From Octopus vulgaris (Eukaryota): 64,000 nucleotides of DNA. The notes under the pieces are model-generated. The model saw nothing but the letters and a program-made list of their open reading frames with translations. It did no database searches and was not told where the DNA came from. The stretch's first letter is position 1, and each line of letters begins with the position of its first letter. The DNA lies in NCBI GenBank assembly GCA_951406725.2, contig OX597828.1, positions 37,696,001-37,760,000 on the forward strand, in the 5' to 3' direction. The translations under genes and the position numbers were made by a program. Below are positions 4,368 to 56,364 of the stretch, piece after piece.

Positions 4368-4608
<241 letters not shown>

Positions 4609-4932
4609 TTTTCTGTGTTTCTTCTTTTATTTTCCTCTCTGTATATTTATTTGTATTTTTTATTGGTTTATTGGTTTATTAGTGGTTCGGTGTGCATTGA
4701 AATAAATTGTGGTCGAAACGAAATGATATTAAAACATTAAGAGAAGCGAAAGGAGTTGCAGAGAATTCCATGCGCATGCAGTTGTGCAAGCAAAGAAACG
4801 GATATTCACACACACGCGCAGCGCACGTGGTCGCCCCCGCCCCACATGCTTTATAAAGTGCACATATTGAGACAGGCCAACACCAGCAAAACACACAAAC
4901 GTACACAAATTAAATCTTGCAACATATACGAA

Positions 4933-11351: not shown

Positions 11352-12423
11352 CTGACAGATCTTTCGGACTTTCAAAAAGGTCAAATAGTTGGTGCTCAAT
11401 TGGCAGACGTTAGCGTAACGAAAACAGCCGAACATTTGGTGTATCAAGAACTACTGTCTCGAAAGTAATGGCAGCCTTTGAGAAAGAGAAAAACCTCGTC
11501 GAAACAAAACTCCTGAAGAAAACTTTCAGCTAGAGAACGTCGGAATCTTACGCGAATTGTTAGAAAGGATCACAAAAGTCCAATTCTCAAAAATACTGCA
11601 GAGCTTAATGACCAACCTCTTCGAGAACCCAGTTTCCACAAAAACTGTTCGCCAGGAGCTGCAAAAAGCCGGATTTCACAGGAGAGCTGCAATCAGAAAA
11701 CTACTACTTTCAAAAACAAACTTTGCTAAGTGTTTAGAGGGGAGTAAAAACCTACAGAATTGGTTCCTAGAGCAGTGGAAGAATGTTATTTACTTGCACG
11801 AGTCATCCTTCACGTTATTTGCGACCACCAGCCAAGTATACGTGTGGAGAGAGCCGAAAGAAGCAATTGACCCAGAATACCTTCTTCCAACTGTTAAACA
11901 TAGAGGAGGATCTTTGACAATCTGGGGGTCTATATCTTGGAAATCCGCCAGTCCAATCGTTTCCCTTCATGGCAGAATTGATAGTCTTGACTATTTAAGC
12001 ATTTTACGTGATTCATCCTAAGTTTGCGGAAGTGTTTCCGGGGGAAAACGCAATCTTTCAGGATGATAATGCACCAATTCACACAGCTAAAGTTGTTACT
12101 GAATGACACGAGAAACAGTCTAGTGAAGCTGAGCATCTTATCTGGCCACTACAGTCCTCAGATCTCAATATTATCGAACATTTATGATGTATTTTAGAAA
12201 AACAAGAAAAGAAGTCGATATCCGCCGCCATCATCACTACAAGAACTGGAGACTGTTTTAGCTGAAGAATGGATAAAAATTCCTTTGGAAACAATTCGAA
12301 CCTTGTACTAGTCCATAACCTGTTGAATTCAAGCCGTAATTACTGCCAAAGGTGGTCCTGCTCCACATTGAATTAAATTTGTTTGAAATTTTAAGGTGTT
12401 TCCATTATTTTGTCCAGCACCTG
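11352..12423 (+). mobile_element. Tc1 (DD34E) transposon fossil with right TIR
   Basis: DLSDFQKGQIVGA..GVSRTTVSKV paired domain; VIYLHESSF, FQDDNAPIHTA, SPDLNIIEHL and AKGGP motifs, with frameshifts and stops. Ends ggtgtttccattattttgtccagcacctg|TA. Confidence 0.92.
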
Positions 12424-24023: not shown

Positions 24024-24220
24024 TATTTTATAGAAGGATCTTCTACAGGACTAGAACTGTTTCATTCAAATGAAATCATCAGGAAGTTTTCCTGATGATT
24101 TCATTTGAATGAAACAGTTCTAGTCCTGTAGAAGCTCCTTTTATAAAATAAATTAATTTACTCTGCCATGTATTGAGTACCTTATTTACTGTGGTTAACC
24201 CCGACTCAACCCGGGACCTA
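24021..24220 (+). mobile_element. Fold-back (TA)n-flanked cassette with hammerhead core (CTGATGA 24092, GAAA 24111)
   Basis: 65-bp arms 24021-24085 / 24089-24153 with 2 mismatches and a 3-nt loop. The right arm continues to the (TA)n at ~24220. Confidence 0.75.
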
Positions 24221-24352: not shown

Positions 24353-24355
<3 letters not shown>

Positions 24356-24542
24356 AGAGTTTACCCAAAAAATAAAAGACGAAGACAGGTGGTGTACAAA
24401 ACAAACAGATATATTAGTATAACGTTCAGGAATAGAAAAAGTCTTTTACGTTTCGAGCCTACGATCATCTACAGAAAGGGACACAGAAAAAAAAAAACAA
24501 GGAGAAAAATATGTGTGTACTGCCTAACGATCTTCATGGCGA
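24353..24542 (-). mobile_element. ~190-bp PLE 3'-end derivative with hammerhead (24441-24480)
   Basis: Near-identical to 48045-48234. 3' end abuts (TA)n. Stem II carries a mismatch (GATC/GCTC). Confidence 0.85.
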
Positions 24543-33700: not shown

Positions 33701-34580
33701 TTATGTGATGAAAACTCATAGCTCGTTTTGCTAGGTATGATAGAAAGCGTCTGCTGTCCACAGCCAGCAGATTAAGGTGACACTTGTTTACTGGTCTTGC
33801 TTCAAAATCCTGCGAAGAGCTCTCGCAGTTCCAAGCAATGCTGACTTTTGAAGGTGTTCTGCCTTCACACTTGCACCAATGATTTTTTTAGCCATTCTGA
33901 TAGCTGAGTGACGATACTCCCAAGTGCATCAATTACTATTGGATTGGTATCACACCTACTCTCTTCATTGACCACAGCATTCGTATTTCCCACTTCAAAT
34001 CGTCATAGTTGTTTATTTTTTATTTTTCTTCCCCATTGATCCTGTTGTTACCGGAGCATTCTGTGTCGATTATTGTACATGTTCTTTCTTTTTTATTCAG
34101 CTGAGCGATGTCCGGTTTCCGATGTCTGGTCGGGTGATCGCACTGGATCATTGTATCCCAAAGGATTTTGCAATTGTCATTTCCAGTGACTCCTCCAGGA
34201 GTTTGCTCATGCCACGTGTTTGCTCTCTGTAGGCCGTGATTTCCACAGAGCTCCCAATGGATCATTCTTGCCACATTGTCATGACGTCTTTTATATTCGC
34301 GTTCTGCCAATTTCAGGCATTCGCGAACGATGTGCCATACTTTTTCACCCCTCTCACCACACATTCTGCTATTGTCACTGTCGGTAGTGTTGTCTATTCT
34401 GCACTTCATGTAATTTGTTCTTGGGCTGCGCATATGAAATGATTCTATCTCTATCTTCAGGTCACTCCTCCTCATCCGTAGCCACCGGTCTACTGTATCT
34501 GTCTTCGCGTTCACATCTCTTGCAAACTGATTGTACATTATCTCCTTCCATGTTTTTACTTTATTTTCATATACACTCAA
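33700..34580 (-). mobile_element. R4/Dong-clade (RLE) non-LTR retrotransposon, 3' fragment, defective
   Basis: ORF 34020-34580 has the zinc knuckle (RMCG...E...HIV..C), RRHD and RKPD..D restriction-like endonuclease motifs. It continues past a stop to LQKSALLGTARALRRIL. The 3' end runs into (TAA)n. Confidence 0.88.
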
Positions 34581-35529
34581 AATATTAGACTGTTATGTAA
34601 AATTTCATCGCATATCATTCTCTTTTCCCTTTTTTCCCCGTCATTTTTATATAAACCTCCACACAAATTGTTCTTGGAATTTTACCCTCACCTGATGATA
34701 AGTAATTTTCGCTGTTGTTATTGTTACTGATGTTATTGTGACTCTTAAAATCGAAAATAGTGCAAAGGGAAGAATTATGTCCCAAAAGTCTTTGCTGTAT
34801 TTATTCGCTTCTTCGTGTCAAAATATTAAACCCCAAAAGGGAATTTGGGGGACTTAAGCCATCAAAAGTGGATAATGTTATAAAAATTATTTCAGAGATC
34901 TAGGGCTCCACCATTAGATAATAATATCTCACACTCCAAAACATTTTTCATATCAAGTTCAATTATGTTTCCCTCGATTCTCTATAACTTACATAAATCT
35001 GAATGTTCTTAAACGTAGACACATCTACAATATATATTAACATACAAACATGAACACACGCATATATATATATTTACACACACACACACATGAACGCACG
35101 TACACCACGTAAACACATGTATATACATACACGTATACCTACATATATAAGCATACACACAAAACTGTAGTCATAGATATACATACAAATAATCACGAAC
35201 ACACAAACACAGAAAAACACACGATCTATATTTTCATTTAAAGCTAAGAACACTCCAGGCAACAGCAACTTTGTTATTAAGAAAGATGTGTAACTTTGAC
35301 ATAACGTGCTGAGTGTAATTTCATTTTCACTTTTGAAAGTTTCAAGTTAAAAACATGTTATCATATCAAAAACTATCATCATAATTTTTATTGAGATTTT
35401 CTCAGTCGTTGTTAGTATTAATATTGTGGTTATTATTATTGTTTACATTAACTATTAATATTGTACCAAAGGTTTTCATTACACTTGGATTTTATCATGC
35501 ATACATAGTAGAAAATAAATGCATATCCG

Positions 35530-42929: not shown

Positions 42930-42978
<49 letters not shown>

Positions 42979-42979
<1 letters not shown>

Positions 42980-43290
42980 GAGGCGCAAGGGCCCAGTGGT
43001 TAGGGCAGCGGACTCGCGGTCGTAGGATCGCTATTTCGATTCCCAGACCAGGAGTTGTGAGTGTTTATTGAGCGAAAACACCTAAAGCTCCACGAGGCTC
43101 CGGCAGGGAGTGGTGGCGATCCCTGCTGTACTCTTTCGCCACAACTTTCTCTCTCTCTTTCTTCTGTTGGCTTGCTCGCTTAGCCAGCGGGGTGGCGTCA
43201 TTTGAAGGCTAAAACAATGCGAAGCGCATTGTGACCAGCGATGTGTAGCAACATCTGATAGCCTGGTCGGTCACGGTGATCACGGTGATA
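42979..43290 (+). mobile_element. SINE family B, tail type 2
   Basis: Same head; tail ends ggtcggtcacggtgatcacggtgat. Confidence 0.9.
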
Positions 43291-45158: not shown

Positions 45159-45229
<71 letters not shown>

Positions 45230-45230
<1 letters not shown>

Positions 45231-47374
45231 CTGACAAGGGTGGAGCTGTAGTGGTGTGGAGCGCGGACCTCTATAGGGCCGAGGCTTTCCGCCAACTCAA
45301 TGACACCTCCTTCTACTCACCTCTGCCCTCTAACCCCACACGTAGCTACCAACAGACGGTATCCTCTACTGTCCGCGACCTCATCTCGTCCTCCCGTCTC
45401 CCCCGCACCGCATCCAACCTAATTGTGCGAACCCCACGTACCCCCACCATTTACTTCCTCCCCAAAATCCACAAACCCAACAACCCTGGCCGCCCCATCG
45501 TCTCCGCCTGTAACTGCCCCACGGAGCTCATCTCTAAATATCTCGACCGTGTCCTTGCCCCCTTAGTGGCATCTCTTCCCTCCCACATCCACGATACCAA
45601 CCATGCTCTCCGGCTTTTCAACTCTTTCTCCTTTCCTCCCGGCTCCTCCAAAATCCTTTTTACTATGGACATCCAAAGCCTCTATACTGTTATCCCTCAC
45701 CACGAAGGACTGCAGGCCCTTCGACACTTTCTTGACCTCCGCTCTAACCCTGTACCTGACACCTCCACACTCATTCGTCTGGCCGAACTTGTCCTTACTC
45801 TGAACTGCTTCTCGTTCGCGGGCGAGTTCTACCATCAGATCTCGGGAGTGGCCATGGGAACGCGAATGGGCCCCAACTATGCGAACCTGTTCGTTGGCTA
45901 TGTTGAGGCCCAAATATTCTCTAATTTCACTAGTCCCACTCCTGAACTATATGGTCGTTACATTGATGACATTATCGGTGCCACCTCACTCTCCCGTGAA
46001 CATCTAGATTCCTTCCTCTCTTTCGTCCAATCTTTCCATCCAGCCCTCCACTTCACTTCCACTATCTCCAACACCTCTGTCTCCTTCCTCGACATTTCGG
46101 TTAGCATTCTTCACTCCACTCTTACCACCTCCATTCACTACAAACACACAGACTCACACTCATACCTCAACTTCTCTTCCTCCCACCCAGAACACCCCAA
46201 GCTTTCCATCCCCTATTCCCAATTCCTCCGTCTACGTAGGCTCTGTAGTGACGACCATGACTTTGAGACTCAGTCTCAACGTATGGCTCACCACTTCACC
46301 CTACGTGGATACCCCCTCACCACTATCCACACCGCCCTTGCCAGAGCACGGTCCGTGGACCGTGTATCTGCTCTCTCTCCCCGAACCCGCCCTGTAGTCT
46401 CCCGCCTCCTTTTTCCCCTCACTTACCACCCCACGACCCTACGTCTCCAACGCACTATTCTTCGAGCTTTCCGTCATCTCCAGTCCGACCCGTCCACTTC
46501 ACACCTCTTCCCTAACCGACCCCTCCCCTTTTTCAAACGAGCCCACAACCTTCGAGACCTTTTGGTCCATAGCTCCTTCCCTGACTCTACCTCCCAACCC
46601 GGCTCGTTCCCCTGCTCCCGCCCACGTTGCCGCACTTGCCCTTACCTCTCCAACACCACCCTCCTCACTAGCACCCACCATCGACCCTATCCCATCATCC
46701 ACTCCTTCACCTGCACCTCCAGCAATATTATCTATTGCGTCTCTGGCTCTCTCTGCCATTCCTTGTACATCGGACAAACGGGACGCCGCTTGGCTGACCG
46801 GTTCGCGGAACACCTTCGTGACATCCACCTTGCGAACGACACACCGGTCTCACGCCATTTCCGCTCCACCGGTCACTCCTTGCAACACCTATCTGTGTTC
46901 GGTTTGTCCTTACACAGAGGCCATCCGGATTCCCGTTTGCGCCGTGAACAGGAATTAATCTTCTCTCTTCGCTCTTATACACCATTTGGTCTCAACTCTC
47001 CCCCCTCCTCATCTAACCCCCCTCTCCCCCTCCTCACCTATCCTTCCCCCCCCCCGACCCCTACTTCTTCAGTCCTTCATCCTTTCACCCCTACTCCCCT
47101 TCCCTTCTCCCTATTTCTCCCTCCCTCCTTCCCTCTTCCCCTTCCCTCTGCTCCCTCATTCCCCTTCTCTCTCCCCCTCTCCCTCTTTCCTCCTTCATCC
47201 CACCTCCTCCCCTTCCTTCTCCACCTCTCTCCCCCTCTTCCCCCCTCCTCTCCTCTTCCCCCTCTCCTCCCCCTCTTCTCCCCCTCCCCCTCTTCTCCTC
47301 TCTCCACACTACACCACACGACTTTACACATCACATCATATATGATGTGCCATACTAATACATACACCAACTAA
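45230..47374 (+). CDS. PLE reverse transcriptase + GIY-YIG endonuclease (5'-truncated; homology ends ~46997, remainder is low-complexity read-through)
   Basis: Frame is open from 45230 (ADKGGAVVVW). RT motifs: YFLPKIHK..GRPIVS, TMDIQSLYT, QISGVAMG..MGPNYANLF, RYIDD (YIDD at 45959-45970), FLD, K.TDSHSYL...SSHP. Cys linker CSRPRCRTC. Endonuclease NIIYC..C..LYIGQT..RF.EH. Typical PLE end YTPFGLN. Confidence 0.93.
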
Positions 47375-47680
47375 TACATACTAATACATACTAATACATA
47401 CTAATACATACACCAACCCTATACATACACACGTCCAGACCTCTCATACGCACTTATACTCTCTCATACACACACGCACACACTTATACATACTAATACG
47501 TACTAATACATACTAATACATACACCAACCCCATACATACGCACGTCCAGACCTATCATACGCACTAATAATCTCTCATACGCACACACACACACACACA
47601 CCCTTATACATACTAATACATACTAATACATACACCAACCCTATACATACACACGTCCATACCTCTCCTACGCACTAATA
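47353..47680 (+). repeat. Minisatellite in PLE 3' region (~115-bp units, about 3 copies, with TACTAATACA subrepeats)
   Basis: Unit 'tactaatacatacaccaacc(c/t)atacatac(a/g)cacgtcca(g/t)acct..catacgcact' recurs near 47400, 47511 and 47621. Confidence 0.85.
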
Positions 47681-47739
47681 GCTGGTCATTCAACCCTATT
47701 ATCAACCCTATTATCTCCCCTTATTTCGCTCTCGCGTCT

Positions 47740-47781
47740 CATGTTTGATCTTTGACCTCTGGCCGAAATCAGATCGCCATG
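47740..47781 (+). ncRNA. Degenerate upstream hammerhead motif in PLE 3' end
   Basis: CATG..TTGATCT..GACC tct GGCC-GAAA-TCAGA-TC-GCCATG: palindromic stem III ATC-A-GAT and CATG/CATG stem I, but the CUGANGA core is decayed. Confidence 0.4.
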
Positions 47782-47846
47782 TTGATTCGTTAGTTACTGC
47801 ACGCATTTTTTTCTCTCCTTCTTTCTGTGTTTTTTCTCTCTGTGTA

Positions 47847-47884
47847 TCTTTATGTTGAAGAGCGTAGGCTCGAAACGTTAAAGA
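47847..47884 (+). ncRNA. Type I hammerhead ribozyme motif in PLE 3' end (core mutated, AUGUUGA)
   Basis: TCTTT-ATGTTGAA-GAGC gtag GCTC-GAAA-CG-TT-AAAGA: 5-bp stem I, 4-bp stem II, palindromic ACGT stem III. Confidence 0.7.
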
Positions 47885-47982
47885 CTTGTTTTATTTATAT
47901 TTCCTGAGCGCCATACTAATACAATTGTTTGTTTGTTTCCCACCTGCCTTCGTCTTTTGTCTATTTTCATAAAGCTTCCCGT

Positions 47983-48044
<62 letters not shown>

Positions 48045-48047
<3 letters not shown>

Positions 48048-48234
48048 AGAGTTTACGAAAAAAGCACAAAAGGAAGATAGGTAGTGTACAAAACAAACAG
48101 ATGTATTAGTATAACGCTCAGGAAAAGAAAAAGTCTTTTACGTTTCGAGCCTACGCTCTTCTACAGAAAGGGACACAGAATAAATAAGGAGAGAAAAAAT
48201 GTGTGTAGTGGCTAACGATCTATCATGGAGACTG
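48045..48234 (-). mobile_element. ~190-bp PLE 3'-end derivative with hammerhead, (TA)n-flanked
   Basis: Reverse complement is homologous to 47770-47982. TA repeats on both sides. Confidence 0.85.
48133..48174 (-). ncRNA. Type I hammerhead ribozyme (variant core CUGUAGA)
   Basis: Minus strand reads gtccCTTT-CTGTAGAA-GAGC gtag GCTC-GAAA-CG-TA-AAAGac. Predicted cut after GUA (48139/48138). Confidence 0.75.
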
Positions 48235-55613: not shown

Positions 55614-56127
55614 CAGCAAACCCTCGACTATCGCGGGTGCTACGTTCCAAAACATCCCACAGAAATAATTTAATTCTAAGAAAATATAAATACCTATCGG
55701 TTGAAGAAATTCGCGATGTGCTTAGGAGTTCTTGATATATATTTACATATCACGTGATCACATGGCCGACCAGGCTATCAGATGTTGCTACACATCGCTG
55801 GTCACAATGTTTTAGCCTTGAAATGACGCCACCCCGCTGGCTAAGCGAGCAGGCCAACAGAAGAAACAGTGAGAGAAATTTGTGGCGAAAGAGTGCAGCA
55901 GGGATCGCCCCCACATCCTACCGGAGCCTCTTGGAGCCTTAGGTGTTTTCGTTCAATAAACACTCACAACGCCCGGTCTGGGAATCGAAACCTCGATCCT
56001 ACGACCGCGAGTCCGCTACCCTAATCACTCGGCCATTGCGCTTCCACATATTTACATATAATAACCAGAAATATCGCGATACACTGAGAGCGTGATAGGG
56101 GAATTACGATATGGTGAGGGATTACTG
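55614..56127. mobile_element. pogo/Tigger-type MITE with nested SINE
   Basis: TA|CAGCAAACCCTCG ... GAGGGATTACTG|TA. Confidence 0.8.
55751..56047 (-). mobile_element. SINE family B, tail type 2
   Basis: Reverse complement of 42979-43290. Flanking repeat ATATTTACATAT is a probable TSD. Confidence 0.9.
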
Positions 56128-56265
56128 TACATGCTGATGAGAAGTTTAAGGACTGAAGCATTGTGGGTTCATATTGAAACTTAGATTTCTAAACTATTGG
56201 TAAAATGCTTGCGGTCGTCTAAGTCGGCGAGCTGGCGCCATCGTTAGCACGCCGAGTAAAATACT

Positions 56266-56364
56266 TTTAAGTTTCGAGCCTACGCTCTTCTACAGAAAGG
56301 TGCACAGAAAAAACAAGGAGAGAAAAAAATGTGTGTAGTGGCTAACGATCTATCATGGCGACTG
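56266..56364 (-). mobile_element. Partial copy of the same PLE-derived hammerhead element, fused to a SINE head
   Basis: gtttcgagcctacgctcttctacagaaagg...gctaacgatctatcatggcgactg matches 48142-48234. Confidence 0.8.

What the first reader, a model, noticed from the sequence alone, without database searches (positions are those of the whole stretch)
47740..48234. ~190-bp non-autonomous PLE derivative whose fixed 5' end maps to a predicted ribozyme cut site
Seen: three separate short copies (24353-24542, 48045-48234, 56266-56364) all begin at (CAG)TC-(G/T)CCATG. In the long PLE the homologous point (47770-47781) is the stem III / cleavage site of a decayed upstream hammerhead (GAAA-TCAGA-TC^GCCATG). 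Random 5' truncation should not give the same start three times. Inference: ribozyme processing or RT stalling at that fold defines a discrete unit, i.e. a SINE-like or retrozyme-like partner of this PLE without a Pol III head. Caveat: the copies retain 2-5 nt upstream of the predicted cut.
Basis: partly seen in the sequence, partly recalled or inferred. Interest (0 to 1): 0.72.

Follow-up and report, generated by a model that had tools for sequence, protein, structure and literature searches.

The report
Penelope end-pieces stopping at promoter
These short repeats are end-pieces of a protein-coding Penelope-type jumping gene, not a separate element cut out by a ribozyme; many stop at one spot, which is likely the start of the element's own RNA, so they would record where its transcription begins.

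Summary
The three copies are real. They are 3' end-pieces (solo pseudo-LTRs) of a sister subfamily B of the long Penelope-like element (PLE): 73-77% identical to the window's PLE, with ORF-bearing parents elsewhere. The upstream 'decayed hammerhead' is not supported. It is the unchanged consensus of a young subfamily, has no CUGAnGA, loses GAAA in subfamily B and shows no consensus fold. The real minimal hammerhead lies mid-unit. The 5' ends are not fixed, but they hit a sharp wall: 34 of 35 subfamily-A and 51 of 52 B/C junctions end within 6 nt, at a pyrimidine-A dinucleotide just upstream of a YY1-like CGCCATG. Most lie upstream of the predicted cut. Short and long copies mix on a tree; exact B-type tandem junctions number 12. 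Best reading (0.55, inferred): the reverse transcriptase primes at the element's internal TATATA site near the 5' end of its mRNA and runs off at the transcription start. Against this, 12 of 13 full-length copies pass that point, so they need a longer or circular template; no RNA 5'-end data exist here. Earlier scan notes read a tRNA-headed PLE family of this genome the same way.

The parts
45229..47982 (+). 5'-truncated PLE, subfamily A (RT, CxxxxCxxC linker, C-terminal GIY-YIG, 3' UTR, pLTR); full unit about 4.45 kb elsewhere
   Evidence: ORF frame from 45230; RVT_1 E 1e-7; 95% identical to L249, which has an open 966-aa ORF; unit length 4,410-4,851
47740..47781 (+).
47770..47771 (+). Pyrimidine-A dinucleotide (C-8, A-7) at the 5' wall; inferred transcription start
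   Evidence: 34 of 35 A junctions end at -3..-8, none at -11..-15; TA or CA at the same place in B and C templates
47775..47783 (+). YY1-like motif CGCCATGTT; CGCCATG is the conserved block across subfamilies
   Evidence: alignment; YY1 core GCCATCTT in PMC10620060 and GSCGCCATYTTG in PMC2715227; binding untested
47848..47883 (+). Internal minimal type-I hammerhead-like motif (stem I CTTT/AAAG, core with U at position 6, extra A after A9, stem II GAGC/GCTC, GAAA-CG-TH); predicted cut after 47879; this copy has C3 changed to A
   Evidence: (z -3.08); layout as in PMC4209133; activity untested
47983..48044 (.). (TA)n tract shared by the two tail-to-tail insertions; insertion target
   Evidence: nearly all 3' ends abut (TA)n
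48045..48234 (-). Solo pLTR of subfamily B, 5' end at -7; internal hammerhead-like motif at about 48135-48170
24353..24542 (-). Solo pLTR of subfamily B, 5' end at -4
56263..56364 (-). Solo pLTR of subfamily B, 5' end at -6/-7; 3' half missing just past the hammerhead motif

Best explanation
The short copies are solo terminal repeats (pLTRs) of a (TA)n-targeting Penelope-like retrotransposon lineage, and their shared 5' limit is likely the element's Pol II transcription start, reached when its reverse transcriptase runs off the RNA end. Shown: full elements are head-to-tail units in which the pLTR ends in CCC(GT)-TATATA and continues into the 5' UTR; 3' ends of insertions fall at that junction; several subfamilies shed short copies with a wall at a pyrimidine-A dinucleotide just before CGCCATG. 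Inferred: transcription starts at that dinucleotide in the upstream pLTR; the PLE protein nicks genomic (TA)n and primes internally at the first TATATA junction, about 190-215 nt into the mRNA; cDNA runs to the RNA 5' end or drops off earlier, and joins the target through AT/TA microhomology, which spreads ends over -3 to -8. Long copies would come from read-through or circular templates that lack this end.
For: Structure of full units. Sharp wall: A 34 of 35 at -3..-8, although an equally good AT microhomology exists at -10 (18 ends at -5, 1 at -10); B/C 51 of 52 at -4..-8. Exact 28-mer counts for A: 1,957 at 0..+27, 1,346 at -38..-11, 1,348 at -69..-42, a step and then flat; 25 of 100 paired sites lack both upstream words. 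The wall follows the motif, not a distance (about 215 nt from the 3' end in A, 192 in B). Short and long copies intermix on a tree of 83 rows (13 changes, shuffled mean 13.4). Only 2 of 17 A-lineage copies pass the wall at the first passage, versus 12 of 13 at the second (Fisher p 1.7e-5), which argues against a block intrinsic to the sequence. Precedents: Penelope promoter and start site in the pLTR (PMC2377424, PMC8557442); internal RT initiation near the pLTR-ORF junction without need of hammerhead cleavage (PMC11167929); mouse L1 5' ends and RACE starts cluster at Py/Pu just upstream of a YY1 site (PMC10620060).
Against: No RNA 5'-end data: only contigs were available. 12 of 13 full-length copies with an upstream pLTR start 88 to more than 860 nt upstream of the wall, whereas simple start-to-end transcripts would begin at it; a second template class has to be assumed. 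Against the wall-only loss of 24%, 1 of 13 is not significant (p 0.14). A cap-derived extra G is inconclusive: 6 of 52 B/C junctions, 0 of 7 A junctions ending at -7. No DPE match (RGWYV at +28) seen by eye, and YY1 binding in this animal is untested. About half of the sampled copies end 3' of the wall, including a second pile at +26..+40 (21 of 85) in a T/CT-rich tract.
Confidence: 0.55

Rival explanations
1. RT pausing: newly primed RT is poorly processive and drops off at a structure or bound protein near -3..-8 of a longer RNA; processive events go on to make long copies.
For: Subfamily A can fold a hairpin over 47740-47781. Many ends also lie at +4..+70. Full-length copies are selected for processivity, so their passing the site is not a clean test.
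Against: Hairpin -7.9 kcal/mol, z +0.47; no consensus structure across subfamilies; ends lie near the top of the 3' arm, not at its base; loss is flat beyond -11.
Confidence: 0.2
2. Solo pLTRs keep promoter, hammerhead and TA priming site, so some act as secondary masters: a Pol II SINE-like partner copied in trans by the PLE protein. This can coexist with the best explanation.
For: 41 end-piece hits and no ORF piece of this lineage in 1.2 Mb. A few starred clades hold short copies only. Two loci with different flanks share one tandem junction (L008, L028).
Against: The short label is not clustered on the tree (238 of 500 shuffles as low). A short A copy (L204) is 98-99% identical to the long A pLTR. 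No diagnostic 5' head.
Confidence: 0.15
3. One reading: an upstream hammerhead cuts at TC^GCC and defines a ribozyme-processed, retrozyme-like monomer.
For: Subfamily A has GAAA-TCAGA-TC just before the wall, and the wall lies within 6 nt of the proposed cut.
Against: No CUGAnGA; motif not decayed; GAAA absent in B and C, which produced the three copies; most ends keep 2-6 nt upstream of the cut (the patterns cannot show ends at the cut itself, the sample can and has 1 at -2); 12 exact B-type tandem junctions genome-wide; monomers are not bounded by the real hammerhead.
Confidence: 0.04

Closest known systems
EN+ Penelope-like elements, Neptune/Nematis type (PMC8557442, passages read)
   Same: RT with C-terminal GIY-YIG, CX2-5CxxC linker motif, pLTR-ORF-pLTR partial tandems, heavy 5' truncation, (TA)n targets
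   Different: No tree against named clades was built; a sharp 5' wall in solo pLTRs is not described in the passages read
Poseidon PAc of Anolis (PMC11167929, parts 1-2 of 4 read)
   Same: RT starts inside the RNA just past the pLTR hammerhead; AT-rich target; cleavage not needed
   Different: Here the start site is an element-encoded TATATA like the target and the ORF starts about 620-650 nt later; in PAc it is an AC-rich stem-loop within the ORF, not homologous to the target
Minimal PLE hammerheads (PMC4209133, parts 1-2 of 4 read)
   Same: Extra nucleotide between 9 and 10.1, G10.1-C11.1, palindromic 15.2-16.2; mostly single motifs attributed to truncated PLEs
   Different: U at core position 6 in this lineage (a sister family in the genome has canonical CUGACGA); activity unknown
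Non-LTR retrozymes (PMC7229834 passages; bioRxiv 10.64898/2026.07.22.740005 parts 1-3 of 5)
   Same: Short, non-coding, pLTR-derived, with a type-I hammerhead
   Different: Those are tandem arrays; here dispersed monomers whose ends are not at the hammerhead
Mouse L1 TF monomer promoters (PMC10620060, passages read)
   Same: 5' ends cluster at Py/Pu just upstream of a YY1 motif, read as start sites and confirmed there by RACE
   Different: L1 primes at the poly(A) tail, so start-defined ends belong to full-length copies; here they would belong to 190-nt pieces

Membership tests
EN+ PLE | RT with C-terminal GIY-YIG in one ORF | tested here: met
   RVT_1 above cut-off; GIY-YIG E 0.021, below cut-off, but the motif is visible at aa 871 of the 966-aa ORF
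EN+ PLE | pLTR-ORF-pLTR partial tandem | tested here: met
   13 of 17 distinct loci fetched have an upstream pLTR
EN+ PLE | Minimal hammerhead in the pLTR | tested here: inconclusive
   Layout met, but U at position 6; no Rfam hammerhead hit; activity untested
Neptune/Nematis clade | CX2-5CxxC upstream of GIY-YIG | tested here: met
   CSRPRCRTC; criterion from PMC8557442
Neptune/Nematis clade | RT phylogeny | not tested
   No reference sequences fetched
Hammerhead ribozyme (47740-47781) | CUGAnGA core plus conserved GAAA and three stems | tested here: not met
Non-LTR retrozyme | Tandem repeats with a hammerhead in each unit | tested here: not met
   12 exact B-type junctions against 9,183 exact core matches; rare arrays exist (L008, L009, L028)
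Non-LTR retrozyme | Self-cleaved linear and circular monomer RNA | not testable with these tools
   Only contigs
SINE (Pol III) | tRNA/5S/7SL head with A and B boxes, no internal T-run | tested here: not met
   No tRNA in 6 loci; T6 at nt 36 of the unit
Distinct non-autonomous family | Own lineage separate from autonomous copies | tested here: not met
   13 label changes versus 13.4 shuffled; at least 5 forced by starred branches; bootstrap not fully settled

The most novel reading that the evidence does not exclude
This PLE uses two templates. Capped linear mRNA, primed at its first TATATA junction, yields tens of thousands of run-off cDNAs that end at the start site (a strong-stop-like product fixed in the genome, each carrying promoter and priming site and able to act as a Pol II SINE). 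Hammerhead-cut and re-ligated circles, or read-through multimers, yield the long and partial-tandem copies, which show no wall. The genome would then hold in vivo evidence for internal priming and explain how pLTR tandems arise.
Probability: 0.3. Interest if true: 0.65.

Novelty: new variant of a known kind. Interest (0 to 1): 0.4.

Why it matters
PLE transposition is poorly understood: where RNA starts, where RT primes and what the hammerhead does are open questions. A young family with open-ORF copies, a nucleotide-sharp 5' wall in short copies and almost none in full-length copies makes internal priming and the circular-template proposal directly testable with CAGE and RT assays. For annotation, roughly 10^5 such pieces (34 per Mb in a 1.2-Mb sample, including diverged relatives) could be mislabelled as SINEs or retrozymes. 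The element class, the hammerhead and solo pLTRs are already known.

Tried and rejected
Rfam found no hammerhead in the window's 150 best-listed of 330 matches or in the pLTR of L241; minimal motifs are likely below its models. The repeat finder was swamped by microsatellites. The first genome search selects full-length matches, so it was not used for end statistics. RNA: no RNA holder listed on record; four guessed-RNA contig sets cover the pLTR and 5' UTR but cannot show starts or strand. Cap-G test inconclusive. Fixed-distance ruler rejected (A and B differ by about 20 nt). Pol III rejected. The tblastn used a wrong frame and was replaced. A larger random sample (600 kb more) was not obtained, so the random sample is 1.2 Mb. 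Literature searches showed no description of a start-site wall in solo pLTRs or of this family; most subscription papers, Repbase/Dfam and all supplements were not seen. The repeat library of PMC13282606 (passages read only) may already hold this family.

Full report
Setting. The window is G000:C15:37696001-37760000 in a 2.8-Gb genome; an earlier scan note calls it octopus, which I did not verify. Positions below are relative to the C of CATG at window 47778 (= 0).

Observation. The three minus-strand copies exist, with 5' ends at -7 (48234), -4 (24542) and -6/-7 (56364). The third is about 100 bp and lacks its 3' half. The 48045 copy is 86% and 91% identical to the other two, and the three are only 73-77% identical to the long PLE. 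The 40 best genomic matches to the 48045 copy (itself included) are 92-100% identical. Some of these continue upstream into a different 3' UTR and an ORF 70-84% identical in protein to subfamily A (L023, L259). The copies therefore belong to a sister PLE subfamily (B). The 47982/48045 tail-to-tail pair is two insertions into one (TA)n tract.

The long element. Subfamily A is young (30 loci at 98-100% over 47690-47975). Of 18 stretches fetched around ORF hits (17 distinct loci), 13 have an upstream pLTR. [quoted passage not shown] By the criterion in PMC8557442 (passages read), the linker motif points to Neptune/Nematis; no tree was made.

The proposed upstream hammerhead. It is not decayed: 28 of 30 young copies carry the window's sequence and 2 differ by one base, and the 28-mer occurs 1,346 times. 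It has no TGAnGA. Its hairpin scores -7.9 kcal/mol, z +0.47. Ten copies from several subfamilies give no consensus structure, and GAAA is missing in B and C, while CGCCATG is kept. The real hammerhead-like motif is internal (47848-47883; z -3.08). It has the extra base after A9, G10.1-C11.1 and the CG palindrome described in PMC4209133 (parts 1-2 of 4 read), a freely varying position 7, but U at position 6; a sister family has canonical CUGACGA. The B-type 28-mer of this core has 9,183 exact matches and the A-type 4,794; both also occur in related subfamilies.

5' ends. I used three samples not selected for the 5' end: 120 fixed-position 10-kb stretches (41 hits), the first 30 core-pattern loci on C1, and 30 loci found with the 3' 86 nt. 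In one search I dropped edge hits, non-centred hits, the window's own copy, one duplicate locus and one TA-flanked look-alike, and set 8 ends by eye, leaving 97 rows. Of 91 with an end at or before +70, 42 end in +70..+4 (21 of them in +40..+26, a T/CT-rich tract with local duplications), 40 end in +3..-12 and 9 go further. The ends are thus not fixed, but loss per base rises about six-fold at the wall (0.051 versus 0.008). Junction patterns sharpen this. Counting unique loci by hand among the first 100 listed rows: subfamily A gives 35 junctions, ending at -3 (1), -4 (2), -5 (18), -6 (2), -7 (7), -8 (4), -10 (1) and none at -11..-15; B/C give 51 of 52 at -4..-8. These patterns see only ends beside a TA tract and at or before -3/-4. 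Exact counts for A step from 1,957 (0..+27) to 1,346 (-38..-11) and stay at 1,348 (-69..-42). In the 1.2-Mb sample no ORF piece of this lineage was found.

Not a separate family. A tree of 83 copies (69 short, 14 long) needs 13 label changes, the same as shuffled labels (bootstrap not fully settled). Exact B-type tandem junctions number 12. No tRNA head was found and T-runs would stop Pol III (termination rule from general knowledge).

Mechanism. In every subfamily template the wall sits at CA or TA followed within 3-4 nt by CGCCATG, which resembles the YY1 core GCCATCTT. In mouse L1, insertion 5' ends and RACE starts cluster at Py/Pu upstream of that motif (PMC10620060, passages). Penelope and Chlamys-3 start transcription inside the pLTR (PMC2377424 and PMC8557442, passages). 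PAc primes inside its RNA just past the pLTR, without needing cleavage (PMC11167929, parts 1-2 of 4). Together these suggest run-off cDNA from the first TATATA junction to the RNA start (inferred, 0.55). One result cuts both ways: 12 of 13 upstream pLTRs of full-length copies pass the wall, against 2 of 17 A-lineage copies at the first passage. That disfavours an intrinsic stall, but it also means full-length copies are not simple start-to-end transcripts. Read-through multimers or the circles proposed in PMC4209133 would be needed, and selection for processive events could give the same pattern. The cap-G signal is inconclusive and no RNA end data were available.

Comparison and verdict. Solo or truncated pLTRs with minimal hammerheads are known (PMC4209133; PMC3846280, passages), as is the pLTR origin of retrozymes (bioRxiv 10.64898/2026.07.22.740005, parts 1-3 of 5). 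My ten searches did not show a start-site wall in solo pLTRs. Earlier scan notes on a tRNA-headed PLE family in this genome reached a parallel promoter reading; I had formed mine before and did not test theirs. Verdict: real clustering, wrong ribozyme, no separate SINE; a mechanistically useful variant of a known kind. Interest 0.4.

Noticed in passing
L100:8907-8993, L139:4325-4398 and 13 other hits in the random sample: A second abundant hammerhead family with canonical CUGACGA/CCGACGA core and GAGC-TCC-GCTC stem II; possibly the tRNA-headed PLE of earlier scan notes.
   Followed up: no
L008, L028 (C6), L009 (C27), C23:44073417-44073868: Rare short tandem arrays of the B unit with a repeated junction; L008 and L028 share a junction but not flanks; L009 continues into the B 5' UTR. 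Possible nascent retrozymes.
   Followed up: partly
window 56201-56262: Fragment of another common repeat (15 hits in 1.2 Mb), SINE-head-like by eye, abutting the broken 3' end of the third copy.
   Followed up: partly
window 47000-47017 and 47852: The window PLE's frame runs past the usual stop because of a length change in a C run, and its hammerhead C3 is changed to A.
   Followed up: partly
L003:1422-1682, L094:1319-1661: Head-to-head inverted pairs of short copies, a typical PLE insertion form.
   Followed up: no
window 11482-12021 (+) and 34020-34592 (-): Tc1/mariner transposase fragment (PF01498 E 1.5e-6) and a frame that looks like the C-terminus of a non-LTR retrotransposon protein (by eye; no Pfam hit).
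   Followed up: no
window 24042-24132; 42964-43233 / 55791-56060: A perfect 91-bp palindrome (MITE-like) and two inverted copies of a 270-bp repeat, 88% identical.
   Followed up: no
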